DNA from: Spongospora subterranea f. sp. subterranea | Taxonomy: Eukaryota | Length of the DNA: 64,000 nucleotides | Reading direction: 5' to 3' | Assembly (NCBI GenBank): GCA_049724395.1 | Contig: JAUGWO010000102.1 | Location: 248,001 to 312,000 of the forward strand | Shown: in pieces, positions 4,668 to 59,218 of the stretch | Layout of the letters: every line of letters starts with the position of its first letter | How positions within the stretch are numbered: the stretch's first letter is position 1 | Notes under the pieces: model-generated | What the model was told of the DNA's origin: nothing | Databases searched by the model: none | The model's input: the letters and a program-made list of their open reading frames with translations, nothing else | Program-made: the position numbers and the translations under genes

Positions 4668-5153
4668 CTCTAGACCGTTCCCAGCTGTTCCCAGCTACAC
4701 CTGTAGGGCGATAGGCGCACAATTTGGGAGCGGTGATCTCTGAGTCCCGGGAAATCCATTGCGACACTGTATATTTATCAGAATTTGAAGTGTGGTTACG
4801 GTATATTCATCAGATTTACAGACTTTCTTCAAAAGACCAACTCACTATATTGAACGGGTCTGATTTCTTATCTTTTCTGCTGTAATGAACGAACATTTCT
4901 CCAATCGCATATCAGTTGTTCTGAGCGGCAGCTTTGTTTATTACAGTGGTGAATCGAAAGGTGAAGCTGGTTCAGTCGCGCCCACTCCAGTACGAGTGTT
5001 GGCGACAGGTTCTCGGGTTTGGCCCGGTCATCATCAAGCTTTAGCGTAGAATCCATCACATCCATCAAAACACGTCGCCCGCAACATTTCCGGCCCAGAA
5101 CTCGGGGTCGGGGCAAATCATCAGATTAATTTCTTTCTGGAATTAAACACGCG

Positions 5154-7180: not shown

Positions 7181-7241
7181 AATAAACACACGAGTTCAGT
7201 AAAACAGGATCGAGTGCCCGGTACCTGATTCATAGCGCCAA

Positions 7242-8025
7242 ATGGATGAAGGCGATCCGGTCGTGGGCGAATCGTTCGAGAACGCGTACGTGAAGGACAC
7301 GAAACGGTGCCTGCTGCGGTTGGAGAACGCGGCGAACACGGGGATCGGGGAGATTGTCGAAGGGATATCGGAGCTGAGTGTATTGTGCTGGCTGGGCGGC
7401 CCAGCGGTGCAGATCCCGGTTGGGACCAGCCACATCGTCGACAGGTTCCACGAATGGCTCCAGGGCAGGGCGCTTCCCATCGACAACCTCACCGACGATC
7501 AGGTCTTCGCCCTCCATCGCGCCGTTCTCGAGGTGGTCTCGATCGTCTGCCGACGGTCGAAACCGATCCAGGATCCGCCTGAAGCAGTCGCTGTGGATCG
7601 AGGTTCTGGTAAAGTTCTTGAGTCACCCGAGGGATAAACTGGTACAATTCCTGTCCAAGACGACATGATCTGCCAAACTCAACATTGTGTGTTTCGCTAG
7701 CGACAATTGGCGGTGACGTGTTTATTGTTCATAATCATCAACAATACCGCCAATCAGTTCGCCATCATGAAGGTTCATGGGATTCAGGTGGGAAGCGGCG
7801 CCGCTCTCGATTGTTGTTGTGGTTATTGACCTGGGGGGCGGTACTTTGGCCAACGAACAGGGGGCCATCGAGAATATCTGCAATCTGGATTGGTCGCTGC
7901 ACGTGTCGAACCACGCCGACGACCTGCTGAACCTGTTGGATCTAGCCCAGCACGCCATCCGGAAGGACGGGGCCGGGAACGAATCCCTGCTCATCCTCAT
8001 GCAGCAATTATCACGACAGGGATGA
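7242..8025 (+). CDS. Armadillo-like helical protein resembling ARMH2; needs a 1-nt frameshift at ~7575
   Basis: Reconstructed LCWLGG...VLEVVSIVCRRSKPIQD/RLKQSLWIEVLVKFL...LAVTCLLFIIINN...NLDWSLHVSNHADDLLNLL parallels my recollection of ARMH2 (LAYTGG...CWCYLNPVSQKRAK...ENWSGWTENFAEVL). Two GT-AG introns splice in phase once one C is removed. Confidence 0.55.
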
Positions 8026-8537
8026 TCATGACCATCATCATTAGACCCGTCATTTCAATTACAACGATTGTATAAAGGGTAAAATCGCCCATAAAAAAAC
8101 GGCCGATTGTCGTCGCCTGCTATTTAATAAAAAAAAACAACGTGTTTCATCACATTCGTGCTCTGCAATAGATAAGATCGGGCTGTTTCTCCCTGAACGA
8201 CTCCTAGAATTGCAAACAATTCCTGCATAGGGAGATGGGCAAATTCACAGTCCGAGAAGGGAAAACGGATGATGATCTGATATGGTTTCGGAAACAACAG
8301 CACCATTGGTGAGATTGAGGGGAAATATTGCTAATCGATGGAGTAGGAATAGATATTTTCACAGCTCATAGCGAGAATAAGATCGTGTACAAATTACGAT
8401 TGGTGCAGAATCCCAACCCCCATATTACGTTGGTTTTGGGTGTCGGGTTGCAATCGTGTGGGAGAACAAAGTGGGGGCGCTAGGCTTCCCCTGGATTATC
8501 TGCCAAGATTGACGAGCTCAGGCGCGTTTCGGGCGGT

Positions 8538-11381
<2,844 letters not shown>

Positions 11382-11638
11382 AACACAAAATGGTGAAATA
11401 CATAACCACATTATCCCAGTCGTATTCTGCAGAGTCGCTCAAAGAGAGGTCATCGGCACCTGGAAGAAAAACTGACGTTTCGAGAAAGCGTCACCGTTCT
11501 TCGGCGAGGAAACCGGTGTCGTTGTTGAGTCAGATCGACATTCACTTATGGGGACGATTATTCCAGAGATGAATGGCGTTATTATTGGTAGTTTGGGCTG
11601 ATGGCGATTGTATAAGAACATATTGCAGACCCCCACCG

Positions 11639-13123
11639 TTATAATGGGGGATCGTCCGGCGAACTCCTCTTGACCGGCTCTGGTGGTAGACACCTCCTCA
11701 GCAGAACCTGGACCACTCTGTCGAACACGTCCTCGACATTAGCCCGGTTCGTGTTGCACGTGGTGTAGATCGTGATGGGATTCGTGAGTCGATTGGCGCA
11801 TCGCAGCTCGAACAGACCCCGGATGAACGCCAGGCCGGCGTCATAGTCACTTCCGCCCGTGTATTCAGGAAACGTCTTGGACAGGCCGGAATACTGCAGC
11901 TTTTCGCGGAACAGGTCGGCCTTGTTCAGAAACAGGAAAATCGGCACCTTATCGAAATACGCTGAAAAAGCAACGATGGTGTTGACCACACCGTCTCTAT
12001 TCTGAGAGGAATTCACCTTACGGGAGGAGCACACTTCCTCGAACAGCTTCAGCGATTCGCACATTCTGTTGACAGTGTCGTCCTCGAACAGCATCTGATC
12101 GTACTCGCTCAGCGCCGCGACAAAAATGACGGTCGTGACTTGTTCGAAGCAATGCAGCCATCTTGATTGGCAGAACAGCAGACGATGAGTTTAGGCGGAC
12201 GCACGCTGCCAGGGTTGTGGGGACTTACTTGCGTCGTTCGCTCCGTTGCCCGCCCACGTCCACTATCTTGAACAGGGTCGAGCTTTTCCCTTTGAACTCT
12301 TTCTCAGTAATGCCAGTGGACGATACGCGAACCTGATCGGATTCAGCGCTTAGGGGGGAGGGGGTTGGTCGGCGTTCGGCACCGCTTACCATGAGGATAT
12401 CCTGTTTGGAAGGAATATAGCGATCGGAGACGATGGCGCTGATCTTGTTCAGGAAATAGGCTGTGGATTCCTGAGCGTGGAACAGATGCCGATGCTTGTA
12501 TGCGTTCTGCACGCCGGGATCGGCCCAGAACACTTTCATCATCTCCCCAACCTGAACAGGAACCAGGAGATCAGATGAGGAACGGTACGAACACTGAACG
12601 GACCAGTTTCGACGGTTTCAACGTTTTCTTATCAGCCTGTAGGAAAAACCTCTTGGCTTCGAAACTGTTGGGACGCATTCGAGTGTCTAATCCTGGATCA
12701 AGGCTATCGGTGGCGAAAAGAATGCACTGTACAATTAGCAGACACATTTGGCAAATGTGGGCGATCAACGAATCGCCGACCAGTTACTGACGTTGACGCC
12801 TTCGACAACATTGAGAAAGATAGCGCGTTTGAATTCCAGACGCTCTTTGATGGTCATTCCCGCCCCATATATGGACACCAACTGTTTGAACAACGTCGAT
12901 TTACCCGAATCTCCTAGGAAATGCGCAGAGCGCTTCAACAACAACGTATCACGCAAATGGGGAAATAATGGCTATCAGAACCTGGACCAAGGAGCAATAT
13001 CCGGAAAGTGGTATCAACTCGCTGCCGATCCAAGACGAATTCTTTGTCAAATAATCGAGAGCGGGCCAGCTGTTCGTGAGAATTCACCTTTCTGGAACCG
13101 CAAAACCCAAAGCATCGTGACAT
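11639..13123 (-). CDS. Heterotrimeric G protein alpha subunit (atypical), multi-exon
   Basis: ILLLGPG/DSGKST across an intron, YIPSKQDIL, RVSSTG, DVGGQRSERRKW, NRMCESLKLF, FLNKADLF, TTCNTN. Confidence 0.93.
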
Positions 13124-13363: not shown

Positions 13364-15845
13364 TTAAGACTTTGAAGGGCTTTCTGCAGTGATACCTTCT
13401 TCGGCCAACCAATTTCGCCAATTCCTTGCGAATTCCTTAGGAAGACTAGGAGGAAATTCTGAGAGAACTGCTTTGACGATTATCGATTCATCGACATTCT
13501 CTGGGAGAGTATACTGATCGGGAATGACTTTAAGGACTGAACTTAACCGAGCACAGCAAACCTACAATAGAGTGCCCAGGACATTGGCGATGTATTCTGG
13601 AGTTAAACGCTTGGCAGTGCTGGCGAAATCGACTGGGTAAATTGTAAGAGATCCGGGTAACAACTTTACAAGGGCGGAACTTTACTCTTGCCAATAAATT
13701 TTCTGCCTCAAGAACGCTGGTACCCGACGAAACAGTTTCTAGCCATTCTTCAAATAGATCCATTCTAACAGAAGAATATATGCAAGAAATGACGTCCACA
13801 TGATCTGTAAACAACGTAAGCGATTTGCAGATTCGAAATGACTAGGACTATTTGGTTACCTGAGCGCCATTTCACGTCCATGAAAGGAACTTGACTTTTT
13901 AATAGTTTTAATGTGTAAACAACCAGATCAATCTGGGGTATGTGAAGCAGTTTAATTAAAAGCTCCTGAGGGTAAAAATTAAAAGAGCTTTGTAATTGAA
14001 GCAAAACGGCTTACAGGCGCACGAAATTTCACCAAAGAACGGATTTGTCGAGGTGCCCGTTTGGATACTTTTTGAAGGATCCTTAACATGTTAGAATACG
14101 CCGAATACTTTCTCCAACAAGGATGTCCTTGGCAGGCTATGATGGAAAAAAGCATTCAATGAGATTAGACACAGTCTCACGCTGTAGTTTGAAAAAATAC
14201 GTTTAGCTTCAGCGATCAACTGTAGCATTGACACTCTATCGCTGGATCGCCACATGTTATCGTCAAAGGGACTACGATGGAAATAATGTTATAGTTAAAT
14301 AAGGTTGGTGATTGTCTTGAATACCTCAAATGTGGAATATCGTTTCGTTTTGTTAACGAAGCTGAAAGGTTTTGATTAAGAAACTTCAAGATCAGTATCA
14401 ACGCATTTTTGTCTTGCAACAAGCATAACATTGTAGAAAACTGCAGCGGATGCCCACGTCGGAAGATTTTCAGTAATTTGAGAAGGATAAATGCAATCGT
14501 CTTGGTGAGGATCTCCGTATGCCTTGATCTTTCAACAGTTTCCGTTAGGTCTTGGATATCTTCCCAAATCATGAACTCTGCCGACGTGTTAACCATTTGA
14601 GCGCTGCGGCGAACGTTGGGCGCAACCGAGAGAAGCAATTTAAGTATACCCACAATATACTGAGTGCATTTCAATGAGCAACATATATACACAGATGCCA
14701 GAATCATATACCTGCCTAAGCTGAGGTTGCATTACCCCATATAATTTGCTAGGCCCAGTTGTGTTATTAGGAAGATAATGTTCTTCGAACAGGTTTTGTT
14801 TCAAAATATCTTCTGTATCTGAATAACCAATATGGATATATTTCCTTGCCATTTCAGCTCGTTGCACCAAAGCTTTCGGAGTACGAACAAAGGTCACCAG
14901 CTCGATTCCGTTTTCATGAGCTGAGTTCGGAATGCACAAAATCGGCCCAAAGTTGTCACTAATATGTTGACATACACGGAAAACATCGCTCCGTCGGGAC
15001 TTTGGGGTTTTCACAAACTTTTCATCATCAAACTGAGATTTCCCTACGCCACCGAACTCCATAAGAATCATTAACCGCACCAGCAATAATATCTTTTTTA
15101 GGGGAAACAAATCAGCGTCATCTGATGCGACAAGATCCAAACAAAAAGCGATGCCGTTTTGGCCATTGAACACATTTCCGGCAAAGAACTCGCGAACCTA
15201 AAACAACGCTCACTTTAGAGTGTGGTTTTTTAACCGACGTGGTAAAACCTGTGTGTCATCTGAATGCAGAATCAGAATCATCAGCGTCATGTTCAGGCAC
15301 AGGCGAGATTCTTTTGTTAGTTTTGCAGAAGTTGACGAGCATTTGGCGCCAGATTCTGATAACTGTAAATTCCTGATTGCTTTCGCGGCTTTACAGAAAG
15401 CGGTGATGACAACGGGGAGTAATCCAGCACGAAGCATTCCCAACGAAAATTCTTTGGATAAACTAATACGCTGCTCAGATGAACTAGGGCAAGGCAAAAC
15501 GCCGCCGACCATGCACAAGCAAATAATTTCTGCGATTCTTATTCTTTCCTTGGAAGTTTTTAATTCGTCAACTAGAAGTTGAGTTAATCGAGTCGACGCT
15601 GTCAGAAAATCGAGCCCGGAAGGCGAACCGCAATCGTGGATTGCCTGGCGAAACTCGAACAGCTCAACATACTCCGAAAGAGAAAATATTTCGCTCAGCT
15701 CATTGAGAAGCGAATCCGTATCGCTTCTGTCGAATAAATTATCGCTTCCTGGCTTGACGGCGAAAAATGTAGCTGACAACCGCCTGCTGGTCCTATTGGG
15801 CAGCTTCATCGTCAGACGGCCCGCTGATTTTTCTGACGATGCCAT
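13364..15845 (-). CDS. STRIP1: Striatin-interacting protein (STRIP1/2, FAM40/Far11; STRIPAK)
   Basis: FPLKKILLL...FGG, ILKLLLSVAP, RHTEILTKTIAFILLKLLKIF, LILKFLNQN, YTLKLLKSQVPF...WR, C-terminal LPKEFARNWRNWLAEE. Confidence 0.85.
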
Positions 15846-16247
15846 TGTTCATGAGAGGTCGGCGATATCCACTTCAGCTGGATTCTCTTCCGCTAAATCC
15901 AATGAGGCTCTACGCTCCATTATGACATACAGTGACCCACTTTCAACAAGCGGAACATACTGTACACAGTACACACACACGCTCACACATGAGTCCTGCC
16001 TGACTGATGAGTGGTGGCCCGGAGTCATCAAAGGGGGCTGCGTACCACGCTGGACAAAACACTCGAAAACAGTACATTTGAGAGATTTGTAAAATCTCAA
16101 CTAAGGTCGTGTCCACTCAAAAATAGGTATATTGCCATGGAGATTTCTCCAAGTACCCATTTTTTTCTCTAAGGAGAAAAATAGCTGCGGTTGTATGATG
16201 AAGTAGCTACAAGGTCGATCGTGGATTTCTTCCGGGGTACCTGTAGC

Positions 16248-16982
16248 CATTTGTCGGAAGGATGGCTACGAGAGGTGATCGTCGCCATACCGCTGTGGCC
16301 AAGTTCAGAAAGCAGTTGTTAGTACGGCGTCTCCTAATCAGCGCATGATTTAGCGGCTCAGAGCTACGTTGTCGGCGATGAACCGCTTGAATAGCGAATA
16401 CATCAACCTTCCTGACGCTGATGAATTTATGTACAAAATGGACGTGAGTCGATGTAGGTCTCGTATGGCATCACGTCATTTACAGTATCACAATTGTTCA
16501 AAGGTTGCCTTACCCAGCTCACAAGTCGATGTGAGCTCAAAGCCATGTAAACCCACTGGCAAAACAGAGCAATCTGTTCGATGGACCCCCAACGCGACTC
16601 AATGTCTGATTGACGAGCTGGCGAAAACGAATCGCAACCCGATTTTTAAGTCTGAAAAGGACAAGATCAAGTTGCTGGTTGGACCGAAATCATGAAAGGA
16701 CTTGCCAGGGCAGGCCATTCTGCTTACGAAACAATTGTGATGCTGTAAAGGACGTGATGCCATACGAGACCTACATCGACGGCGTCCATTTTGTACATAA
16801 ATTCATTAATGTCCGGAAGGTTGATATTTTTCGCGATCCAAGCGGTTCATCGCGACAACGTAGCCCTGAACCCGCTAAATCATGCGCTGATTAAGAGACG
16901 CCGTACTCTAACAACTGCTCTCTGAACTTGGCCACAGCGGTCTTGCAACGATCACCTCTCGTAGCCATCCTTTCGACAAATG
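16248..16982. repeat. Long imperfect inverted repeat: arms 16248-16498 and 16730-16982, ~230-nt spacer
   Basis: catttgtcggaaggatggctacgagaggtgatcg...cagtatcacaattgtt is the reverse complement of aacaattgtgatgctg...cgatcacctctcgtagccatcctttcgacaaatg, with scattered mismatches and bulges. Confidence 0.95.
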
Positions 16983-17069
16983 TTGTTTTTTATTTCAAAC
17001 GAAACAACGGCTCGTCATGCGTTGATGCTCAACGAAGTGCAGCAGTTTTTTTTTCTAATAACTAGATTA

Positions 17070-18453
17070 ATGACTCTTCGTGTTGTACAGGCACCTTGCT
17101 GGCTTGTGCACCTCTCTATTACGCTAATGTTCGTCATGGTGATATAACCTATAGTTCTTGTAGAGAATGGCCAGCTGCCAGATTTTATGCCACAGTTCTG
17201 CATCCACGACGTCTAACTGACCATAACGCCGCGTTTTTGGACGATGGCGATATTGTTTGCAACAAGCCCACTGAAGAGATGTTGTCGGACGCAATCGAAA
17301 GGGAACCTTCAATCCAGCATGAAACTGATCTCACCCAGGGGCTTTCATCGGGCCAAAATTCCTCGAGCTAGACAAATCCATCATGGCCAGGAACACGCCG
17401 TCAAAATACACAGCGGCACCACATTGTTGACGGTAGTGTAGAGCACTCACATTCAAGAGACATGTTCCGTTTTCTATCGCCACTGGTTTTCGAGGATCAC
17501 CTCACAGTTTGGACAAAGAATGATTGCGACATCAACAATCATAGAGCCGAATTTATACAAAATTTCTTGCTGGATGCATGAGGCAAGCAGACCCTTTCTA
17601 GCAAATTGACCATCATCAAGTTACATTGGACGACCACAAATATGCGGATCAGTCTTATCCCGAATTTTTATCGTGATTATCGTGTGAATGAATCACGAAT
17701 CTGAGTGTTCATACTCTGAAGAACAGGCAGAATGGATCTGCAAATGTCTGCGTCGCCCCATCACCGACCGCAGTTAGCAATCGATACGAGTAAAGGCGAA
17801 TACCTGATGCGGATGCCGTTATCGTCATTGGCCTATAATGTTTACAAGACTAAACGCTACTATTAACGAGGATACTCCCAAGATTGGATAAGTATTTCGA
17901 ACGGTAATCTTTGACCGGTACGGTGAAGGTATCTTGGGAAATGGTCCGACGAGGAAAATAACGCCCTTTGACCCGAGTGACCTACGACTGGTTTGACCCA
18001 AGTGATTCGCGCGTTGTCGCAATATATCCTCCAAACTAAAAAAGGACCATGATGGAGCAAGTTAATTCTGGAGAACCGTATGAAGGATTAATTATTACAC
18101 CAACGCTAAGAGTTGCCGAATCGATGCTCCTCTTTGGTGAACACCTGAATGTTTTAATGCCAGAAATGGGTGCAGAACAACTATCGGCATATGATGAGGA
18201 ACTATACACCAGGATAACCGGCGGGTCATATTATGGTGACGCCGAGATAGAGGTGGACGAGCAATTCCCTGAACGGCCGGCAATCGATGCTCCAGGTGTG
18301 ATGCCTAGAGAACGCGGTGAAAGCGAATCCTGTCCCTATGGTGATGATCAAGAAACGATTCGCACTGATTATTCCCCTGTTGAAGGAAGGTCGATGACCA
18401 TTCACGAACTTGTTTATAACGCGATGCCCGAGTGTTTTATTACCGAGATCTGA
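17070..18453 (+). pseudogene. Degraded intronless coding sequence (possible secreted protein relic); intact 134-aa acidic tail at 18049-18453
   Basis: Protein-like stretches broken by stops and frameshifts lead into the 18049 ORF; hydrophobic signal-peptide-like start at ~17070 if one frameshift is allowed. Confidence 0.35.
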
Positions 18454-18553
18454 CAGCAAAGGATAGATTCAACACCATATTAAGCTGGACCAGGTCGGAA
18501 AAATGGTTGTGTTTTGTAAAAACAATAAAAGGACGTTTGACAAGACAGAACTG

Positions 18554-19304
18554 TCACCCTCTCCTCTTATCAGAAACTGATACGCGTTCCCTTTCAGAAA
18601 TCTGCTCCAATAACCAAAGAATAGCTGGCTTGAGGCCACTTCCGGTTATTGCTACGACATCGACAACTTGATATGGTCTAGTATCATCCAATGATAACAT
18701 GTCTGATATCTGATCCGACGGCAAGGCACCGGGCAAATCTTGCTTATTGGCCAGAATGAGTACTGGAACACCAACCACGTCCTTGTGTTCTAGAACGGAC
18801 AACAGTTCCTGACGAGCTTCCGATAATCGCTCGACATCTGCAGAATCGACAACGTAGATAATCGCGTTGGCTTCGGAATAGTATTTATCCCAGATCACCT
18901 AGAAATGAAATTGAAAATGTAATCTGACCGTGATAGATATCAGATAATGACCCGTATTCCAGATTGACCACCGACATCCCAAATAGTTACCCGACATGCG
19001 TCAATGTCCAAACGAACAACTGTCGGGTCGCGTTTGAGAAACCCAGACCCCAGCGAATCACAACACATGTTTACGGTTGAACCCAATTGTTGGAGTAGTT
19101 GTGATATTTTCATTCACCTTCATGTTCTTATCGAAAATCATCCGGAACTGCTCGAGACAGGTGCTTTTCCCGGCATTATCTAATCCTAAAACCAACAGAT
19201 CAGATCCACCTAGTGTGCCTTGGTGGAGGTCTACCAATGATCAAAAGTTGATACTCTGGGCGGTCGAACATGATGCATTTAATGTGATTTATGATGGCGA
19301 ACAT
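18554..19304 (-). CDS. ARFRP1: ARF-related protein 1 (Arf-family GTPase)
   Basis: MFAIINHIKCIMFDRPEYQLLIIG/LDNAGKSTCLEQ, PTIGFN, WDVGGQ, IWDKYYSEANAIIYVVDS, LANKQD; aromatic residue 2 and no myristoyl Gly, as in ARFRP1. Confidence 0.88.
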
Positions 19305-19757
19305 CGTCAAAATCGCTCTTGTTGGGTAAAGGGGGAATTACAGCATCGGCATTTCGACCCTTGAGCCGAATAATATCCACGGACTCCACCACTGGCTCTG
19401 GGATTGTCGTTGAAGATGGAGTCGAGACTACATAGAGATGGCGTGCTGCGTCCTGCACAGTGTTTCTAGGAGGCGCTGATGAGTACTTTGGACACCCTGG
19501 AGTCCCTGTCGCTCCAAGTCCTGTCCAATATTCTGGCCATTTCAAACGAATCGCTGGAATGGCTTGCTCAAAAGGCATGTTCTTATCACCGCTTCTTCAG
19601 CTGGTTGGTTGAAAGGCCCAGATGGGTTATGGGTATTTTTTTACAGTAGGGGGTATCAAACCGACGAATTTCCCTGATGTATGTATACGCCCACGAGAAT
19701 CGCAAGCTTTTTACTCTTCACGTACGTGATGAACAGGTGAAAGGGCTGCCCAAGTTT

Positions 19758-19904
19758 GAGGTCGCCATCGAAAATGCGTCTAAACCAGGTTTTCGAAACT
19801 TCAGTACAGGCAGAACAAATTGAGAACAAAACTACTACGCGTTTGTTCTACCTGTAATGATGTTTTGAGAACCTGGGAGAGGAGCATCAAAACCGAGTGA
19901 CCTC
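19758..19904 (+). ncRNA. Candidate pre-miRNA-like stem-loop
   Basis: 19785-19820 pairs with 19841-19876 (36 positions, 3 G-U, 3 mismatches, 20-nt loop); outer gaggtcgc/gtgacctc pairing. No expression evidence. Confidence 0.45.
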
Positions 19905-20229
19905 TAAAGTCAATGTTTCGAAATTGTTTGCCATGGAGTTTCGATAACAATGTAGTACATCTCACTTGATTAACACTTTACATACGAACAAATCAGTACC
20001 TTCAGCAGGTGCAGTCTATCATCTTTTGGAGTACTTGCTAAGTGCATTACCTAGACTTAACACAGGTAAAGGCTGGTAAAGGTGACGCAGCGAAGTCAAT
20101 ACGGTGTCAAGTTCCGCCCGACTCTCAGCTACAAAACTACGATGGCAATTGGCGTTAATGTCTCAAATTTGTTGAACTTGTCAATTGCATCGTCATACTT
20201 TCGTCGCTTTAAAAAGCAATTCATACGAC

Positions 20230-20794
20230 AGCATAATGGTACCAACTAAACGGGATCTCCGCTACATGAAGCTTAATAGCCTTTTCAAAACAATCGAACT
20301 GATCGCAATAAGCAACGATCCCCCATTTTAATAGGTGGTTGACTTTGCATCTACTGGCGTTCCCAGAAAAAAACAAGAGTGTGCGTTGATAACAGATGGA
20401 TCATCACGGTCGGTATCTGAGCGTTCAAAGACTGGCGTTTGGAATTCCTAGCCCTGTGATTATCGGCCGGCATCAAACCGACTTTGATACACGCTGAATT
20501 TGACCTCTTGCAAGACGACAGCAATGACCTGTTCACATCGTCGCCACCACCTCTTTTCCTTGGTGCCAGAACTGCGACTCGCAAAGAGAAACACTTTTCT
20601 GGGGTGTCCGCTTCAGGTTCTGGTAGGATAAATTCACTGCTCCCTTCGCCGTGAATACTTTGCTTGAACGCCAGTAGATTCAACGTCAACAACCTATAAT
20701 AGTAATCGTTGCTTATTTCGATCGGCTCGATTGTTTGAACAGGTTATTGAGCTTCGTGTAGCGAACATCCTGTTTTAGTTGGTACCATTATGCT
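20230..20794. repeat. Imperfect inverted repeat: arms 20230-20362 and 20666-20794, ~300-nt spacer
   Basis: agcataatggtaccaactaaa...atctactggcgttc vs gaacgccagtagat...tttagttggtaccattatgct. Confidence 0.92.
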
Positions 20795-21166
20795 CTCATG
20801 CTGTGCACTACACGGAATACCTGTTTGGATGAGATCAGGGGTTTCGTCAGTCGCAGCCGATCTTAGATTTAATCTCGCGAGAGCTTTGGGTGAAAACTAA
20901 TTCTCCAACGGGAATGCATAGTGCATCTTTCAGGACCATGCAATCCGAAGCACATGTTAAACGATATTGCGGTTTGTTTCAAAACATTATCACATCAAGA
21001 TCGTATAGAGATCGCGAACTTTTGATCAACGAAAAGTTGGTATGTCTTACGAAAATTGCTGCAACGCAATCAAGTATCGAATCAATCTAAAGGTTTCACC
21101 AAAAAAGATGTGGGCCTTTTACACCCAAATGAAACGACTGTTAATGATATTTATTATCGATAGGTT

Positions 21167-24100
21167 TTACAAAGGATGTACACTGTCTTGATATGCAGAT
21201 TCAAAATTGAAAATGACTTCACGCTGTTCGGCAGCATTTGTAGCAGCAAGAAGATTATCGACGAAATTGGCTCGACCCGGAATAGATCCTGGGAGGCTAT
21301 ATCACCCGTGTCAACAAAAACAAAATTGAGAGATTAATACCCAACCTGTCAACAGCTTGACGAAGAAAAACTGCTGCACTAGTTTTATCAAGAGTGACAG
21401 CTGCCCTGATGACCTCAATCAAATCCCTCATTCTGTTCCGGGATAGATCTTCAAGCAAATGTCCAATCAGCTCCCTAAACATGATCGCTCCATACGTTGA
21501 AAAGATTGAAAGCACAGCGCTGGAAGAAACGCAAATATAAATATATATATTGCCTAAAGGATGCCAACTCTACCTTCTGCATTGCTCCCGAGTTCCACCA
21601 ATATCTAATAGATGCCTAATGAACATAAAAACAGCTCGAGCCGCCTCCCTATGTTGTACCCTGATGGCAATCAAGGCGCAGTGCAACGAAGATGGTAAAA
21701 ATCCGCTATTGAATGAAACTGCAGTTAGGTCGGCAATGCAGCGAGACAGAAAATTGAAGTAGTCTTCGCAGATTGTGGGATTCTCTGTTATTTGCTCAAA
21801 ACTGGTAAGTATGGACAGAGTTTTGGCAGCGATGCTGCCAAGAGCTTGAGCGAATAATTCCTGACACTCATCAACGCTGAAAAAACGAATAATCACCCCC
21901 GAGGCAGAAAATAATCACAGAAACTACGCACCTGGAAAATTCGTCGAGGCAGATGGAACAAGTGTAAATGAAGCACGACCAAGGGGCAGCAGGAAAAAGC
22001 CTGCTTAACAAAGGTAGAAGCACGGCGATTATTGGACAATCCCTCCCAGTCGCTCGCAAAGAATATTTCAAAAGACGACAGACTTTTTCCATTAACTTTT
22101 CATCGCGGACAAGGACAACGAGCATTTCTGTAAAAAAGTTATTGAAAACCTAGGGCACCAGAGGCGAAAACACATGATACCTTGCAATAAAGGCCACATA
22201 TCGTTGATGATACGAACTAGTTCATTGCATGAATCGAGATGAATACTTTTGAAAAGATGCGCTAAACGATCCAAATTAATGGAAAGTGTAGAAATATCGA
22301 TTTCCTGGCCATTTCCTAAGAGAAATAAAAATGCTTAAAACACTGACAAACGGCTTGGTATGCAACCATACGTAAAAGGCCCATTGTGGACGATAGACTT
22401 TGTAAAATGGGACTGATCAACTGCTGTAAATGACCTGGAATCGCTTCTGGAGGCCGGGAGCAGATAACGCTGCAGACACCTTCTATGATCTCACTTTGGT
22501 CGTCAAAGTCGAGACTCCCCATCGAACAATAAACCTAAGCTCCATAGAATCAGCCAAAACACAAATTCTGAAAGCAGCTACGAACCGCAATTAGCTGATT
22601 GATATCATGGGCGGCTAAATGACGCGCACAGGATTCACACACAAATTTGAACGCCATTGCAGCCGCTGACTGAGATGCAGGAATGGAAAGTCCCTCAACA
22701 ACAAAACCAAGAAGAGGGCCAATGGATTCTGGATGGGCATTAATCCAGTCCGAATATCTGTTAACGACTGAAACTCCATTGGCAAAAAACTGACTAATCG
22801 CATCTCAAACCTTCCAATAATCATCGTTGATGTATATCTGAGTACGGGATGTGAAGACATGGACAACAAATCCGCCATAACTCGCGGAAGCAGACTTTTT
22901 GACGCAGCGCTCTGAATGCAGGCTATGCATTGACTTTGACGGGCAAACCGCAAATACGCTTGGCATTACCTCTTCCCCAATTTTGATGTTCCTGGCGATT
23001 GATCTAACACTGTAAAGGCAAGCTTCCAGACGATGCCATTGGCGAGGATTTTGGCGATACTCAAGAACACATGGCTAATAACACAACAGTCAGAGACATT
23101 ACGTTAACGGCAGTGTAAACACTACTTCACCTGCATGCAGGATACCAAATGTTCCAGGCAGACTGAACTGTCACAAAAAGAAGATATGTCTAACAATGCA
23201 TCCGCTGCTTGATAGCGAAATCGTTTCTGCTCCTCATCTTGTTCTGATAGTCCATCGTAATCCGAGGGAAATTCGATCACCACTCTGATTTTGTCCATCG
23301 CAGCAAGAAATTCATTTTGATACCGTTGGCCGACAGCATTCGCTTGGTTCGCATCAGCACGAGAAAGCGCTTCCAGATTCGCTGCGAGTATGTACCTAGA
23401 TACAAGACCGCTGAATTGGTGTGTCGACACTCTATAATGGGCCAGCTGACCAAAAGTTAAACGAAAGGATCGAGAGTTCAGGATCAGGGTTAGAAGTGCA
23501 ATTGATAATCAATTGCAGCAAATCGGTCGCTTGCGGCGCTTGCTCTAATATCCAAGCAACATTCGACTCCGACAACTGAGTGAACACTTGCAGAAGTGAT
23601 CGGCATTGGCTAAAATCTTCGTCATTGACTAGTTGACAGTAATGCGGCCATAAGGAAAAAACAGCAGTGGAAAGCTAAGAAACCGGATCAGGGAGTAATC
23701 TAAGTTGATCGCGATTGCTTGTACTCACTTGCGACCGGAGGTTTTCAAGGTTATGTTGGTCAGCAAATACAATGAATGCGGTTATGACATCGCACGCCAC
23801 CTAGATCCAGAATCAACACATTACCAGTCGAGTAATACAGCTACTGACTTGAGACACATCACTGCAAGAAACAGCTTGGAAACAATCAGCAAGAATTGTC
23901 GAACTCAAAACACCGGCTTCAGGAACGGCTGCAAACGCATGCCGGACCCATGATAAAAGACAGCGTAAAACCATTCGTTGAACGCGCACGTCGTTCGATC
24001 GACGGATAAATTCTAAGGCCGCATTATTGCAGCATCGACGACAAAATCAATGTTTGAGGCAAACCTGACAAAAGAGAAAGTACTTTCGATGCGACAGAAA

Positions 24101-26583: not shown

Positions 26584-26861
26584 TCAAACAAGAATGCCCA
26601 CTAACGCAGAGCAAATGGCGATGACGTTCTAAGAAACGAGCAACTGCTGCAGAAAACATCACTCAGCGACGCCAAAATCAGAGTACAATGAGATCGATCG
26701 ATATTGATAACTTTCGCCGTTTAATGAAGATATGGTCATTACATGAACTTCAGTTTTGAATTTTTTTCGTCAACGGTTTTCAAATAACTATACATGCTCC
26801 TGAATCTTCACCGCGCGATTGCGTCCTGCACGATTGTTATCCGCGCTTCTAAGAGGCGCTG

Positions 26862-27312
26862 ATGGATACCCAATTTTTGATCCAGCATGGCAACGCCATG
26901 CCTCATATTGACGCTTCAGATGAAGAATTCAAAATTGAAGCAAGCAAAGATGGATTTGACATTCAGTTGACCTTTCAGCCACCGAACAGCCCTGATCTGA
27001 ACGTTTCGATCTGGGTTTCTTTCGTGCCATCCATTTCCTTCAGCATCAACGAGCACCAAAAAAACTGACGAACTTGTGGATGCTGTCAAAGATTCGTTTG
27101 CGAAAATTGATAGGGAAAAATTGAACGATATCTTTTTCACTCTCCAGCAATGCATGATAGAGATAAAAAGTCAAGGGGGGCAAAAAATTACAAGCTGTCT
27201 CATATGGGCAAGGGATATCTCCGGCGCCAAGGAGACCTACCCGATGAATTGCCATGTGCCCATTGCAGTTGTGTATCAAGTCAAGCAGGATGCACACATG
27301 GTTAATGAATAA
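26862..27312 (+). mobile_element. Degenerate Tc1/mariner (DD39D-type) transposase fragment
   Basis: FLIQHGNAMPH...QPPNSPDLNV then, after a frameshift, DLGFFRAI...DELVDAVKDSF...LNDIFFTLQQCMIEI. Spacing between second and third catalytic positions is 39; second D mutated to G. Confidence 0.85.
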
Positions 27313-29137
27313 AATCCTTCATTGGACCGTCTCTTTAAGCTCCCTATCCATTTCAACAAATGAAACCGTGACAGCGTCGACAAGTTAGGCAAACCCCAAG
27401 ATCATCCATCCGAACGAATCGTGATTTGATATTGGAAGGTGATTGATAAATCAAGAAACGCAGATGCAAAAGCTTTGATTATGAAGAACCTTCATGAGAC
27501 CTTTATTTCCGAACGGAGCAAGTACTTTAAGAACACTTCTGCAGGAGGAAAAACTCTGAACAACTATCTGTTTTTGCACGACATCTAGTTTCAACCTCAT
27601 TCTGAGGTTCATTAACAAATTTGACAAGTGCATACAGACATTTATATATCCATTCAGCGTTGTTCGTGCTTTTGATTGGAAGAGATTACCATCATGCGGA
27701 TGTGCTGGCTTCGGTTGCTTCGTAAATGATGGGGGACTCCTCAAAAAGATGCATTTCTGGTGGAGAGGATATAAGCCATTCCAAGGTAGTATGCATAGTC
27801 GCATCGATTACGTCGTCAGGGCCGTAATCGGCAGGGTCTTGACTAAAAACCTATTGAATAATTTTACAATATTGGCCATGCCAATGCTACCTTTGGACTT
27901 TCCAGCCGTCCTCATCCCCTTCTTCAAGAGTACCAGTGGTTGTCGCAGTCGTGGCCCATCTACACGGTCTGGCTCCAGCGACACGAGCCATGATCCCCCG
28001 TCGCAAGCAGTTAACGGCCATCATAATTGATTAATGATTTACAGTATTGACAGTATTGGTGATCAAGGTCATGTGTTGTGGGAATTGTGGGGGGACCCCC
28101 CTTCTGTACAGGTAGATACACTGACCCACATCACAACTCGCACTTTGATCTCACCACCTGATCTGTTTCGCCATTTTGACCCATTATCGCTGTCATGTTT
28201 ATCAATATTGTTCAGTTTGCGGAATACTGATACCGCGATATATCGTGAGAGTCATGTGTCATTGGGTTGTGAAAAGGAAATGTGCAACACGTCGATTTAT
28301 TTTACCAAACTACACAAGTTTCCCTCGACGCCTTTGGTTTTTGGTTCGCCTTCCCCGGGCAGACCGTCCTTGTTAGAATGATTGATTTTGTTCCCTTTTT
28401 CTCACATCATTCAAAGATCCAACAAGCGGTCCACCGATAAGCAGAGGAAATCAAAAAAGTTGTATCTGTGCTAATGCCGATAAGCTGTCAACAATTACTG
28501 CAGCTCTCCGATGTAATGTGATGTTGAAATTTTTGTGTTCTACCAGAGTCCATTTCTGCTCAATATGTAGGATTTTTCCGTTTATCGACACCCTCTATCA
28601 ACTGTTGTCAATGATCTGGCATCGTCTTTTTGTCCACGTTGAAGAAGCTCACGATTAGCGTTGTTTGATGAGCTTTGGATCAACTTTTGCGTTGCGTTTC
28701 CGATATGACTTTCTGACAGATTGACCACATCGCGAAATGGTATATATTGCCGCCACTTCAAAGAGGAAGGCGGAAATTCCTTGACTATCAAGCAATTTTG
28801 AACTATTTCCCAACCCGAAAATTCACACCGATTTATCTGCCTGGATGGGGACGCAGTCTCGAATCTGGACTGATGAAATTTTACCGTCGTTGGCAAGATT
28901 ACACACTAAAAAGACCAACTTTGATGCGCTTTGTTTCAACATCGATTCGCTGTGTATACACCCACCTGAAAATTGCAGTCAAAATCGAGCCCGTCTGCCA
29001 GTTGGCGGTATACACTGGTCCTATAGACCGTTCCTATCGGCCCTGTCGTGATTGGATACAGTGAAGTCAGTATCAACTGAAAACCGTAATCGTTTAAGCC
29101 GTCTTGGTTCATTACTACAGATTATACTATACCCAAT

Positions 29138-30079
29138 ATGGCGCTGGTATCACCTCCCAAGCCATGGGAACGGTTGCCGACCGATCCAACCATATCTACT
29201 GCGCCTTTAACCCAAACTTCATCGTTTCCTTCGGTGAACCCTGGGATTTTCGGATCCACATCCCCATATTCACAGCCATCGTATGGATTAAGTCCCAGCT
29301 ATCAAAGCAGCAGTTGGGGGATGTCCAATTCAGGAGCTTATGGGTCATCTTACCCGATGTCGCAATATCAACACTATTCCCAGCAATCTCCTTATATGGC
29401 AAGGTCCTATAATGGTGCAATGATGACGCATCCTATGGATCAATATAAGGGGACGCCCATCAACACCTTGGTCACCAGTGGACACACATTTATGTCTGGA
29501 GTTCAACAACAAGTCAGTTCGTTCGGTCGATTCTCACAGATTCTTCACATGAATCTCGACGCCTTACACGGATCGTTCTCATCATTTCTGCAATTGCTAA
29601 CTAACATTTCACTCTTAAAAAATGAGTTCAGTTCTTTTTTCGGCACGTTTGGGTCTTTAAGTTCTGTGTATGTAATCTACATCAAGTTAAAATCGGTACT
29701 ACTAAGGCTGCTTGGTCGGCAAAATGAGGCGACCAAGCATGAATTCGATGTTCTATGGAAAGAGACATGCCAAGGCCAATGGGGCTGGCTGCCAACGTTT
29801 TTAACGCTATCTTTAGCGGTTCTTTTGGCCAAGAAATTTTTTCAGATGATGCTTTCCGATACCCATGACATGAACAATACGGAAAAGACTCTTCCTGCCG
29901 GATTGCCGCCCAACGCGCCGTGGATGAACCCATCAACTCCAGCGTGCTCTCCATCATTTGGAACAAGCGCACCATTCGACTTTGACCCAAGCAATTCTCC
30001 TTCCTTCATGACAAATCAGGGCAATTGGACTCAGAGCTCGTTTGGATCAGCCCCCAACGCATTCCAGTCAACTTGGTGA
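29138..30079 (+). CDS. PEX13: Peroxin 13, SH3-less (plant-like) type, intronless
   Basis: N-terminal PPKPWE, Tyr/Gly/Ser-rich region, SFGRFSQILHMNLDALHGSFSSFLQLL, membrane segments. Confidence 0.82.
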   Translation: MALVSPPKPWERLPTDPTISTAPLTQTSSFPSVNPGIFGSTSPYSQPSYGLSPSYQSSSWGMSNSGAYGSSYPMSQYQHYSQQSPYMARSYNGAMMTHPMDQYKGTPINTLVTSGHTFMSGVQQQVSSFGRFSQILHMNLDALHGSFSSFLQLLTNISLLKNEFSSFFGTFGSLSSVYVIYIKLKSVLLRLLGRQNEATKHEFDVLWKETCQGQWGWLPTFLTLSLAVLLAKKFFQMMLSDTHDMNNTEKTLPAGLPPNAPWMNPSTPACSPSFGTSAPFDFDPSNSPSFMTNQGNWTQSSFGSAPNAFQSTW

Positions 30080-30226: not shown

Positions 30227-31681
<1,455 letters not shown>

Positions 31682-55539: not shown

Positions 55540-57433
55540 CTAGGTTGACGGTTGCTCAATTTTTGCAATTATTCGTTCAAAAAAATCGCATGATTTTTTC
55601 ACTTGACTGGAGAGAAATGCAAAATTGGCTGCAGTGTCACTCTGCATATTACCTTCCTTATTTTCGGAATTTTCCAGTTCATCCATGTACATGTGCAGCC
55701 TTTGGAAAAGGCTGTCGAACGCGGTAACAAGCTGTACGAATCAAATATATAATCATCACAGCGTCCCGACGTAAACTCCATACCTGCCCTATCTGATGAA
55801 CATCGTCCTCATTGATAAGATCAGGCTTGAGCTTTGATTTTTTTTGTGCAGCTTTAACAGTTCTCGACCGGATCTTGCGCCTGAAGTAAGGTTTCGAAGA
55901 GCGCAATTGCTGTTGATTTTAAGCTCATGATTATGAATTTACAAGAGGCATACCTGGATTTGCAGCTTCAAATGCGTGTTTTCTTTGCCGAGTTCGTTGA
56001 TCGAATGATTCTTTGTAGAAATTTCTCGTTTATTTCGTTTGATGGTTTTTGTCAAATCAGCGATGTCGGAAAACCCAAACGAGGACAAAAATTCTTGAAA
56101 GTCGTGGGTTAAATCTGGCGTCGTTATTTGTGGTGATGGGATGATGACCTGCAACACATTAGACTTCTTTCCAGTATCTGGCGCATAATTACTGTTTTGG
56201 TACTGGAATGTTCATGGACCGGCGCTGCACGAGCTTGAGCCCATGCACTCGGTCTCACCTGAACATTGCTCGGCACTTTGGCTGTGGCCCATTTGGCCAT
56301 CAAAGGGTCTCCATGCTAAATGCAGACATATAGCCTGTCGAATGGAATATGAACGCGTTCACTGACCTTGCTATCTTGCCTATTGACCAAAATAGATTTC
56401 AAGTGAGCGACCAATGCCACATCTAATCCAGGATTGTCATCGATGGTGATTGAGCACAGCGATTGATTGATTTGCAGCATTTCAATCAGTGCACAAATGG
56501 CGACATTTGTGAGCTGATTTGAGCTAAGATTGATATCCAGAACCCATTTGTCGTCTGTCAGAGCCTCGATCAAGCTAGGATACTCAGTAAAAGCATCACG
56601 AATTCAAATATATCTCATACCATTTAACCCCAATATCGCCAAGGCGGTTATCTTGTAAGTCCACACTCAGGACGCCCAATGTAGACATACCCGGCATTCC
56701 ATCATTGTCACGTAATCTATATTGCCATTTCGCCACATCTCGACGAATATTATGATTGGAGATTACATCGCTGAAATGAGAAGCGCTACTCTCGTTGAGC
56801 CCGCAATTGATGAAGTGCCAGTGAGTGATCTCAGATGATATTAGCTGTTGCATTATTCCTAATTCAAATATATTAGCGTTGAATATGAGCGCAAACAATA
56901 TTGATTACTGGATAACAGCCCAGAATCTAATACCACATTTCTTATAAATATCGATTTCAGTGTCTTCAATGAGCCCTTTACTATTGCAGGAATCCGCTTT
57001 GCAATACATGGAGTTACAGAATCGAATTCTACACACGTTAGTTCATGGTTACGACTTAGACCTCGGATAAGGTTTTTTGCAAGCTCATTTTCGGTTGACC
57101 GTGTCGATGACGGCAAACTATTAACACGAGCCTTTGTGTGTAGACGTTGTCGTTCTGAATTGGAGATGCGAACGACTTTGAACGTTGGTACAGCATATAA
57201 TACTTTGAATAATGATTCGGCGATAAATGCAGTGGTTGAATGGATATCGATATCAAGGGTATCTTCCCCTAGCAGTCTCATGACGGAATCAGTAACCTGC
57301 ACATGCTATGCTATCAGTGATGACAGGTTCGAAGAGCAACGCCCCCGACCTGAACGGATCGAGCATCACATTTTTGTTTGAACAGCGTCTGTTTGGCATT
57401 GTAATCTTGAAATGTCTGTAATTTAGTTGACAT
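55540..57433 (-). CDS. CEP78: Centrosomal protein 78-like LRR protein, multi-exon
   Basis: ISNHNIRRDVAKWQYRLR, LQDNRLGDIGVK/CLIEALTDDKWVLDINLSSNQLTN...LIEMLQINQSLCSITIDDNP, followed by coiled coil. Confidence 0.8.
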
Positions 57434-57892
57434 TTTATTATGAACAATGGCAGCAGTGAGAGCTCTCCTAGCCAATCCACTCAAAGAGAACAGAATTTCA
57501 GTTACTGAACACTACTGTAACTGAACAAGCGGCACACTGGGCCTTATACCTATACTGCTCTGTGAGACTGTGCCCAAGTGGGCAAGGCTGACGAGGAGAG
57601 ACAGGTTACCGGGGCTGACAGACAAGGATAAGCGGGAAAGGTGGGGTGATGGGCCCCGGTTGTTGACAATAAAACGGTGGATGGACCGGGTATTTATTTA
57701 ATGGCAGATAGGTTGTCGTCCGAAGAGGTTCATGTAATTCGACAAGTTGGTGAAGACAGCCAACAGTGAGAGACGACGCTGAGTCTGTCAGCGATTCCTG
57801 ACGAAGCATGACGCTTAGCCAATGTCGAGATCATGAAGAACATGTACGCCGACATGACTGGATTTATATCTTTTTTTTTTGTATGTACAAAA

Positions 57893-57975
57893 TTGCACGA
57901 TTATTTGCACGATTATTGTTTTGTCCAAGGTGCACTATTATGTGCACTATGTGGCGCTAATACGCACTATTGCAC
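57893..57975. repeat. Short degenerate tandem repeats (tgcacgattat / gtgcactattat)
   Basis: ttgcacgattatttgcacgattat and gtgcactattatgtgcactat directly before the 58-kb inverted repeat. Confidence 0.7.
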
Positions 57976-58443
57976 ACCTGGCGCTTGGATCAAACTCCAG
58001 AGACTGCAGCAACATCTGCTGTCCAAAAAAAGGACGAGGTATTCATAAGGATTACGGCGAGCACCAAGTCAAATGCTGGAAAAGCGCAACGGTGCCAGAG
58101 GAGTACGTCGGACATGCACCACCGGGGAGGCCCAAAAGCATAAAGCAGTGGAGCGAAAAAGGTACCAATCCGACGCGTACAAACGCGCGCGCCCGAACAC
58201 GTGTGTTCAAACGCCTGGAAGAAGTCAATTGTACGCGTAGGATTGGTACTTTTTTCGCTCCACTGCTTTATGCTTTTAAGCCTCCGCCGGTGGTGCATGT
58301 GCGACGTACTCCTCTGTCACCGTTGCGCTTTTCCAAAATTTGACTTGGTGCTCGTCGTAATCCTTATGAATGCCTCGACCCTTTTTGGACAGCAGATGTT
58401 GCTGCAGTCTCAGGAGGTTGATCCAAGCGCCAGGGTGTGCAAT
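57969..58443. repeat. Long imperfect inverted repeat: arms 57969-58182 and 58229-58443, ~46-nt loop
   Basis: attgcacacctggcgcttggatcaa...acgcgtacaa vs ttgtacgcgt...ttgatccaagcgccagggtgtgcaat. Confidence 0.96.
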
Positions 58444-58446
58444 CGC

Positions 58447-58559
58447 AACCGCCTTGGCGATATTGGGTTAAATGGTATGAGATATATTTGAATTCGTGAT
58501 GCTTTTACTGAGTATCCTAGCTTGATCGAGACAAATGGGTTCTGGATATCAATCTTAGC
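58447..58559 (+). repeat. Inverted duplicate of a CEP78 exon-intron-exon segment (source 56523-56649)
   Basis: Identical to the reverse complement of 56523-56649 except a 1-nt and a 13-nt deletion; contains the whole 46-nt intron gtatgag...tcctag. Confidence 0.95.
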
Positions 58560-59218
58560 ACATAAGGTTGCGCTTTTCCAGGATGTGGACATGCATAGGC
58601 GTACCGTATTAGAAATGATCGGTCGTGGGGTGTCTCCGGATTATGGCGTTTTAAGGCGTCGTACGTCCAAGATGCAAACGTTCGTGCAACCTCCCATGCG
58701 TAGGTACGACAGCTGGTGGTGTTACCGTCGAACAACAGATCTGGTAATTGGACGCGTCATGAAAATAAGAGACGTCCCTGTTGGAACGAGAAGATGGGTG
58801 ACGTTTGAACGCCCTATTTTCAATTAAACTTTTAGGTTTTCTTAAATCGAGGTTAATCGCCAAGCCACATTGCTATTTTACCGAGAACTGCATGAAGTTT
58901 TTTTGATGAACACGCTGCTGATGAACCCTTGATGCTGCTTGTTTACGCAAAAAAAAATCGAATTCCTGTCGTATAAACGGCAGTTATGGTTTAAACTGGG
59001 TTCTCAAAAACTTGGCGAAAAATAAGCAGCAAAAATATAACGTGATAAGCAGCGGCTCATGCTCTTCTCTCATTACGATTGCTACAGTATTACCGATCGG
59101 CCAAATGAATTTGATTGACACATGGTTGATTGTTCACTAAAGTGTACATACCCTACGATGCCCGTCTGGGTGTGTGTACACTTCATAAGACTCATGAAGT
59201 CATGAACCTCATTATCAT

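What the first reader, a model, noticed from the sequence alone, without database searches (positions are those of the whole stretch)
19758..19904. Pre-miRNA-sized stem-loop with G-U pairs
Seen: ccaggttttcgaaacttcagtacaggcagaacaaat (19785-19820) pairs with gtttgttctacctgtaatgatgttttgagaacctgg (19841-19876): no bulges, three G-U pairs, three symmetric mismatches, 20-nt loop, plus a lower gaggtcgc/gtgacctc stem. Established: this geometry is typical of microRNA precursors. Inference: G-U tolerance points to a + strand RNA. It lies in a ~1.8-kb non-coding island with other hairpins, so a polycistronic precursor is possible.
Basis: partly seen in the sequence, partly recalled or inferred. Interest (0 to 1): 0.7.

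Follow-up and report, generated by a model that had tools for sequence, protein, structure and literature searches.

The report
Transcribed microRNA-like hairpin in potato-scab protist
A real 147-base stem-loop in the genome of the potato powdery-scab protist Spongospora lies inside a likely RNA transcript and is likely cut into 21-base silencing RNAs by the Drosha-like enzyme known from its sister genus; nearby fold-back copies of gene and transposon fragments could be the double-stranded RNA source still unknown in this group.

Summary
The hairpin is real and as described: 36 bp in register (30 Watson-Crick, 3 G-U, 3 mismatches), 20-nt loop, z = -9.1, above all 20 shuffled whole windows. A window protein is 99% identical to Spongospora subterranea Pex13, so this is a plasmodiophorid. 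Its sister genus Plasmodiophora was shown in 2026 to make 21-nt siRNAs and 234 miRNAs with a Drosha-like RNase III and Argonautes, without Dicer or RdRP. In 1 of 4 runs laid, a 391-nt unspliced contig (19620-20010, depth 155) spans the hairpin. No small-RNA data were reachable, so miRNA membership is untested. The neighbouring hairpin is a Mutator-type transposase remnant followed by an antisense copy of its own coding sequence (Mu killer-like), at far lower contig depth. Four such long inverted repeats occur in 64 kb. Best reading: a small-RNA precursor (0.55; precise miRNA about 0.3), likely an eroded local inverted duplication. No parent gene, target or homologue was found. Interest is moderate; the larger lead is fold-back loci as the missing dsRNA source.

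The parts
19758..19904 (+). Extended stem-loop, candidate small-RNA precursor (strand inferred, not shown)
   Evidence: MFE -65.2, z -9.13; 55 pairs, 6 G-U
19785..19820 (+). 5' arm of the 36-bp bulge-free core
19821..19840 (+). 20-nt terminal loop (weak internal pairs, p 0.4-0.6)
19841..19876 (+). 3' arm of the core
19620..20010 (.). Unspliced 391-nt contig spanning the hairpin, no differences from the window, depth 155; putative primary transcript
   Evidence: run X1; not covered in the shallow runs X5, X8, X13
19677..19823 (+). 48-codon ORF whose stop falls at the end of the 5' arm; probably not a gene
   Evidence: no credible homologue among 1.84 billion representatives
18427..19574 (-). 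Spliced mRNA of an Arf-family GTPase (ARFRP1-like by recall); its contig ends 45 nt before the hairpin contig
   Evidence: Pfam Arf; three CT..AC joints
20372..20922 (-). Remnant of the C-terminal ~200 codons of a MULE/SWIM-type transposase-like protein (P0005)
   Evidence: 71% identity over 184 aa, E 1e-68 in the window; Pfam ZSWIM1-3 RNaseH-like and MULE in P0005
20227..20362 (+). Inverted (antisense) copy of that coding sequence, placed directly behind the remnant's C-terminal end
   Evidence: 83% over 137 bp to 20666-20797; codons 596-632 of P0005 at 78% on +
20666..20797 (-). Original coding segment that pairs with 20227-20362
16248..16982 (+). Long inverted repeat, 255-bp arms at 90%, transcribed and spliced on +
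   Evidence: contigs at depth 15-20 and a GT..AG joint 16453/16504 in X1
57969..58443 (.). Long hairpin, ~215-bp arms at ~93%, 46-nt spacer
56520..58562 (.). Outer inverted repeat, ~130-bp arms 1.8 kb apart, one arm inside an ORF-rich stretch on -

Best explanation
This 147-nt stem-loop of Spongospora subterranea sits in a likely stand-alone transcript of about 0.4 kb, probably read on the + strand away from the Arf-family gene, and is likely cut by the species' Drosha-like RNase III into one or two 21-nt duplexes that would load into Argonaute and silence RNAs made elsewhere in the genome. Shown: the structure, its excess over chance, the species label, and one contig over it. From the literature: S. 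subterranea encodes Argonautes and one two-RNase-III plus dsRBD protein, and in P. brassicae that protein alone makes 21-nt RNAs. Inferred: strand, transcript ends, processing, targets. Origin (inferred): an old local inverted duplication, eroded to a 36-bp core, made by the same process that left four longer inverted repeats in this window. Whether cutting is precise (miRNA, about 0.3) or gives several species (short hairpin-siRNA locus, about 0.25) is open.
For: Structure and controls. All 16 possible 21-nt duplexes in the core have 1-3 mismatches and no bulge; 147 nt is under the 300-nt limit. Species: 99% to UniRef S. subterranea Pex13, 46% to P. brassicae. Machinery in S. subterranea (PMC4471660 passage). 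P. brassicae: 90.3% 21-nt sRNAs, mostly intergenic, 234 miRNAs in 25.2 Mb, i.e. about 0.6 loci per 64 kb by my arithmetic; the validated Pb-miR002 has a 150-nt precursor. Contig 19620-20010 at depth 155 where other intergenic bins of the same run are 0-20, in a run with spliced contigs. Lower stem exceeds shuffled flanks on + only. Only Rfam matches are two sub-threshold miRNA models, E 0.024 and 0.073, which reflect shape only.
Against: No small-RNA reads were available. Only 1 of 4 runs laid covers the hairpin (4 of 16 listed runs were laid); that run's RNA status is a guess by the tool, and contigs show neither strand, ends nor level. G-U excess is not significant (3 vs 1), and in five other repeats G-U/A-C counts are 4/8, 6/4, 2/3, 0/0, 3/4, as from neutral decay. 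Lower-stem support fades with wider flanks (9 and 12 of 150). No conservation or covariation could be tested: no homologue in metagenome contigs, no similar sequence by eye in the P. brassicae miRNA table. No target in the window: best penalty 4.0, controls 3.0-4.5. No AATAAA near either contig end, while both flanking genes have one. An abundant intact precursor would be unexpected if processing were efficient.
Confidence: 0.55

Rival explanations
1. A decaying local inverted duplication with no function: DNA repair or template switching made a fold-back, and it is transcribed passively from the back of the Arf-gene promoter but is not processed to any effect.
For: The window holds four longer inverted repeats, at least one from a transposase remnant; mismatch spectra look neutral; contig starts 45 nt from the end of the Arf mRNA contig; no target, no homologue.
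Against: Pairing is uneven: 33 of 36 in the core without indels, much looser outside, and the extension favours one strand. In the sister genus the RNase III cuts any long dsRNA to 21 nt in vitro, so an expressed 36-bp stem would likely be a substrate.
Confidence: 0.27
2. A cis-acting structure of an mRNA: either the far 5' leader of the Arf-family gene on the - strand, or the 3' fold-back of a 48-aa micro-ORF mRNA that blocks its own translation.
For: The ORF 19677-19823 stops at the end of the 5' arm, so the 3' arm is antisense to its last 12 codons; the hairpin also folds on -; a hole between contigs proves nothing.
Against: No homologue of the ORF (one filamin-like hit at E 9e-4, judged chance); the two contigs differ in depth (155 vs 276) and no joint links them; + is the more stable strand.
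Confidence: 0.08
3. A small non-autonomous DNA transposon (MITE or fold-back element) whose terminal inverted repeats form the stem.
For: Transposon remnants lie close by; the S. subterranea transcriptome is reported as rich in transposon genes.
Against: No target-site duplication at 19758/19904 or 19785/19876; the 4-6-nt repeats found lie at asymmetric ends (one 4-mer at 19756/19906, chance level among 2346 boundary pairs). No second copy in the window; no variant contig at 90% or more over it in X1.
Confidence: 0.06
4. Part of another structured non-coding RNA of about 390 nt (an SRP-, MRP- or telomerase-like RNA too diverged for Rfam).
For: Size and apparent abundance of the contig; the 391-nt stretch folds into several stems.
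Against: No Rfam family at gathering score in the window; at E up to 1 only two miRNA models.
Confidence: 0.04

Closest known systems
Plasmodiophora brassicae MIR loci (Pb-miR001-225; PMC13547706)
   Same: Same family of protists, intergenic fold-back, size like the 150-nt Pb-miR002 precursor; S. subterranea has the same kind of RNase III and Argonautes (PMC4471660).
   Different: No sequence likeness seen by eye to any listed Pb miRNA; no reads here; processing not shown in Spongospora.
Plant-type MIRNA precursors and the inverted-duplication model of their origin (PMC10004981, passages; criteria in bioRxiv 10.1101/213314, passages)
   Same: Fold-back under 300 nt, near-perfect duplex region with at most 3 symmetric mismatches, looser lower stem; longer, younger inverted repeats nearby fit the earlier stages of the model.
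   Different: No DCL1 in this lineage; no founder or target gene found for this hairpin; precision untested.
Mu killer of maize (PMC3440606, abstract) - for the neighbouring repeat 20227-20922
   Same: Partial inverted duplication of Mutator-family transposase coding sequence able to fold into long dsRNA.
   Different: Arms 137 bp, not kilobases; no terminal inverted repeats seen; the antisense copy sits behind the C-terminus and is also present in the database protein P0005, so it is shared by another copy; silencing not shown.
Drosophila hairpin RNA (hpRNA) loci (PMC10317233, search listing and start of abstract only)
   Same: Genome-encoded fold-back transcripts as a source of endo-siRNAs against related selfish sequences.
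   Different: Made by Dicer-2 in flies (recalled); here only a Drosha-like enzyme is known; this hairpin's stem holds only one or two 21-mers.

Membership tests
MIRNA locus (Axtell and Meyers 2018 criteria) | Single-stranded fold-back of at most 300 nt, no secondary stems or large loops in the duplex | tested here: met
   147 nt, 36-bp uninterrupted core; criterion
MIRNA locus (Axtell and Meyers 2018 criteria) | At most 5 mismatches in miRNA/miRNA*, at most 3 asymmetric | tested here: met
   16 of 16 possible 21-nt registers have 1-3 symmetric mismatches; the true duplex is unknown
MIRNA locus (Axtell and Meyers 2018 criteria) | Precursor is transcribed | tested here: inconclusive
   One contig in 1 of 4 runs; strand and ends not shown
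MIRNA locus (Axtell and Meyers 2018 criteria) | miRNA and miRNA* seen by sRNA-seq, at least 75% precision, in two libraries | not testable with these tools
   None of the 16 runs listed is recorded as a small-RNA library; all are contigs
Known miRNA family (Rfam or P. brassicae set) | Sequence homology to a described family | tested here: not met
   Rfam best 24.5 bits vs cut-off 249; none alike by eye in Table S8
Polycistronic miRNA cluster | Several precursor hairpins on one transcript | tested here: inconclusive
   Contig ends at 20010; next repeat is transposase-derived with own-locus depth 6-10; contigs cannot prove ends
MITE / fold-back transposon | Target-site duplication flanking terminal inverted repeats | tested here: not met
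MITE / fold-back transposon | Multiple genomic copies | tested here: inconclusive
   None in 64 kb, no variant contigs in X1; genome not held
Inverted-duplication (hpRNA / proto-MIR) locus | Arms homologous to a founder gene elsewhere | tested here: inconclusive
   For 19758-19904: two of six frames searched in large databases, no founder; other frames Pfam only. Met for the neighbour 20227-20922
Mu killer-like locus (neighbour 20227-20922) | Inverted duplication of Mutator transposase sequence | tested here: met
   (MULE domain at 25.2 bits, just under the 27.6 cut-off; ZSWIM RNaseH-like above cut-off)
Mu killer-like locus (neighbour 20227-20922) | siRNA production and silencing of the autonomous element | not testable with these tools
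   No small-RNA or methylation data

The most novel reading that the evidence does not exclude
Plasmodiophorids, which lack RdRP and Dicer, get their silencing dsRNA from genome-encoded fold-back loci made by local inverted duplication, typically an antisense copy of coding sequence placed just behind a transposase or gene end. These loci age from long hairpin-siRNA sources into short miRNA-like stems, and 19758-19904 is the oldest stage of that series in this window: a Drosha-only route from transposon defence to new microRNAs.
Probability: 0.3. Interest if true: 0.72.

Novelty: new member of a known kind. Interest (0 to 1): 0.45.

Why it matters
miRNAs in Rhizaria were described only in 2026, in P. 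brassicae, and that paper states that the source of dsRNA for its siRNAs is unknown because RdRP is missing. My five literature searches returned no small-RNA study of S. subterranea and no report of inverted-repeat loci as sRNA sources in plasmodiophorids; the library lacks most subscription papers. This locus would be a first MIR candidate for Spongospora, and the series of fold-back repeats gives a cheap, direct test of the open question using small-RNA data already published for P. brassicae. One unconserved hairpin alone is ordinary.

Tried and rejected
Own-genome search: none held, so copy number, founder gene and targets are untested genome-wide. Replication of the transcript in further runs was not obtained, so expression rests on one run. 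Lack of cover in X5, X8, X13 is no evidence: their depth on the Arf gene is 0-7. Metagenome scan with a 24-nt pattern covering both arms: 0 matches. Arf exon scan: 80 loci kept of 339, identities 32-53%, no close relative for synteny; blastn of 19575-20200 against them gave nothing. ORF 19479-19820 read with X at its internal stop: one hit, a filamin-like protein, E 9e-4, rejected as chance. Frame 19659-19847(-): no hit among longer proteins. Pfam on other frames: nothing credible. A-run after 20401 in X8 first looked like poly(A); rejected, it matches the reverse complement of Phe/Ile codons present in P0005. G-U bias as strand evidence: rejected. The repeat at 27066-27391 is not significant alone: 39.2 bits, reached in 6 of 30 shuffles. 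The 10-mer search of the paper's supplements was uninformative because the miRNA table is written with U. Earlier scan findings: none.

Full report
Observation. The 147-nt stretch folds at -65.2 kcal/mol, z -9.13, 0 of 200 shuffles; the - strand also folds, z -6.81, as any inverted repeat does. Correcting for the search over a whole window, the stem scores 25.5 against 12.5-16.5 in 20 shuffled 64-kb windows (real side limited to 1-57900) and 49.1 bits against at most 46.4 in 30 shuffles. It is not chance.

Organism and setting. The window is a compact eukaryote with introns of about 50 nt. An intact ORF at 29138-30076 is 99% identical to a UniRef protein labelled Spongospora subterranea Peroxin-13 and 46% to P. 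brassicae. The hairpin lies between an Arf-family GTPase gene on - (Pfam Arf; ARFRP1 is my recalled subfamily name) and the 3' end of another - strand gene (transportin-3-like by recall; no Pfam hit), whose poly(A) site is near 21130. No whole genome was held.

Transcription. Sixteen runs hold parts of 15000-24000, all as contigs, none recorded as small-RNA. I laid four. In X1 (RNA is the tool's guess, but its contigs skip GT-AG introns) the Arf mRNA contig spans 18427-19574 at depth 276, and a separate 391-nt contig spans 19620-20010 at depth 155, unspliced and identical to the window, with the hairpin in its middle. Other intergenic bins in X1 are 0-20 apart from a paralogue's contig near 20500. 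X5, X8 and X13 are shallow and do not cover it. Contigs give no strand, ends or level, so a divergent + strand transcript is an inference. AATAAA lies near the 3' ends of both flanking genes but near neither end of this contig.

Strand. Three G-U against one A-C is not significant, and five other repeats in the window show no G-U excess on +. Keeping the core and shuffling its flanks, the real flanks fold better than 150 of 150 shuffles at 40 nt on +, but 9 and 12 of 150 shuffles match them at 60 and 100 nt; on - there is no signal (23, 44, 84 of 150). That is modest support for a + strand RNA.

The neighbourhood is not a miRNA cluster. Self-comparison finds four longer inverted repeats: 16248-16982, 20227-20797, 57969-58443 and 56520-58562, at 132-563 bits against at most 46 in shuffles. 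The nearest is explained: 20922-20372 on - is a remnant of the last ~200 codons of a S. subterranea protein, P0005, 71% identical, which carries ZSWIM RNaseH-like and sub-threshold MULE domains. The arm 20227-20362 is an inverted copy of part of that coding sequence, set directly behind the C-terminal end. P0005's own last ten residues match the antisense reading of that segment (8 of 10 with the stop in place at 20667-20699 on +, 7 of 10 at 20361-20329 on -; all other places at most 5), and X8 and X13 hold a ~90% variant of the arm, so at least one other copy, or a diverged strain, has the same fold-back. This resembles maize Mu killer (PMC3440606, abstract). The 16-kb repeat is transcribed and spliced on + in X1. 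At 26853-27391 a weak IS630/Tc1-mariner signal (E 0.017; DDE_3 lead at 0.86; motif recalled) is again followed by a short antisense arm, but that repeat is within chance (6 of 30 shuffles).

Origin of the hairpin itself. No founder was found. P0005 does not match it. The + frame running into the 5' arm, read with X at one stop, gave a single E 9e-4 filamin-like hit; one - frame gave nothing among longer proteins; six further frames of the island gave nothing credible in Pfam. There is no target-site duplication, no second copy or target in the window, no match in metagenome contigs and no close Arf orthologue for synteny.

Machinery. PMC4471660 (passages) reports Argonautes and one two-RNase-III plus dsRBD gene in both P. 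brassicae and S. subterranea, and no RdRP in P. brassicae. PMC13547706 (abstract, passages, sections 2.2, 3 and 4.5, spreadsheet parts 1, 3, 4, 5, 34, and a term search of the Word supplement; figures not seen) shows 21-nt, 5'-C-biased, phased sRNAs mostly from intergenic loci, 234 miRNAs, 435 PHAS21 loci, a Drosha-like enzyme that alone cuts dsRNA to 21 nt, and states that the dsRNA source is unknown. It does not mention Spongospora. It shows one palindromic miRNA region in a figure I could not see, so the link to inverted repeats may be partly anticipated there. About 0.6 MIR loci per 64 kb would be expected at that density (my arithmetic), and this is the best short-loop stem of the window outside the 58-kb repeat. 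Precursors in the table run from about 60 to about 990 nt (read by eye); none of the mature sequences resembled the arms by eye.

Mechanism. Likely: Pol II makes a ~0.4-kb RNA from the back of the Arf promoter; it folds into the 36-bp core on a looser lower stem; the Drosha-like enzyme releases one or two 21-nt duplexes; Argonaute uses them on RNAs from elsewhere, plausibly transposon or paralogue transcripts. Structure, species label and one covering contig are shown; all later steps are inferred from the sister genus. The structural miRNA criteria are met, the read-based ones untested (bioRxiv 10.1101/213314, passages), so I file it as a candidate, not a member. The inverted-duplication model of MIR origin (PMC10004981, passages) fits the graded series of repeats here.

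Verdict. Real feature; probable small-RNA precursor (0.55), neutral relic the main rival (0.27). New member of a known kind; interest 0.45. The bolder reading, fold-back loci as the RdRP-independent dsRNA source in plasmodiophorids, has probability about 0.3 and is testable with published data.

Noticed in passing
window 20227-20922: MULE/SWIM transposase-like remnant on - followed at once by an antisense copy of its own coding sequence; the database protein P0005 and contigs in X8, X13 show the same arrangement in another copy. Mu killer-like.
   Followed up: yes
window 16248-16982: 255-bp inverted repeat at 90%; contigs at depth 15-20 in X1 with a spliced 50-nt intron on +; founder gene unknown.
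   Followed up: partly
window 57969-58443: Largest hairpin of the window, ~215-bp arms, 46-nt spacer, open frames on both arms without Pfam hits; expression not examined.
   Followed up: partly
window 56520-56649 and 58447-58562: Near-identical inverted copy (13-nt indel) of a piece of an ORF-rich - strand region (56316-57305, leucine-rich-repeat-like by eye, no Pfam hit), enclosing the 58-kb hairpin; a small palindrome at 56484-56519 abuts it.
   Followed up: partly
window 26853-27391: Frameshifted remnant with weak IS630/Tc1-mariner similarity, followed by a 51-bp antisense arm at 76%; the repeat alone is within chance.
   Followed up: partly
window 5001-13000: G+C rises to 0.51-0.57 against about 0.44 elsewhere; holds a protein kinase ORF (9912-10478). 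Could be a conserved gene block or an insertion.
   Followed up: no
window 18040-18453: 137-codon acidic ORF on + without Pfam hit, converging on the Arf gene; no contig cover in the four runs laid.
   Followed up: no
window 20503-20586: An abundant paralogous contig (depth 535 in X1) matches the transposase remnant, so a related element is probably highly transcribed in that sample.
   Followed up: partly
window 3541-4536, 14216-15845, 29138-30079, 30896-31492, 42189-42575, 62415-63095: Ordinary genes by Pfam: GDI/REP, Far11/STRIP-like (N1221, DUF3402), Pex13, Dus, phospholipase D, HYDIN-like Ig domain.
   Followed up: no
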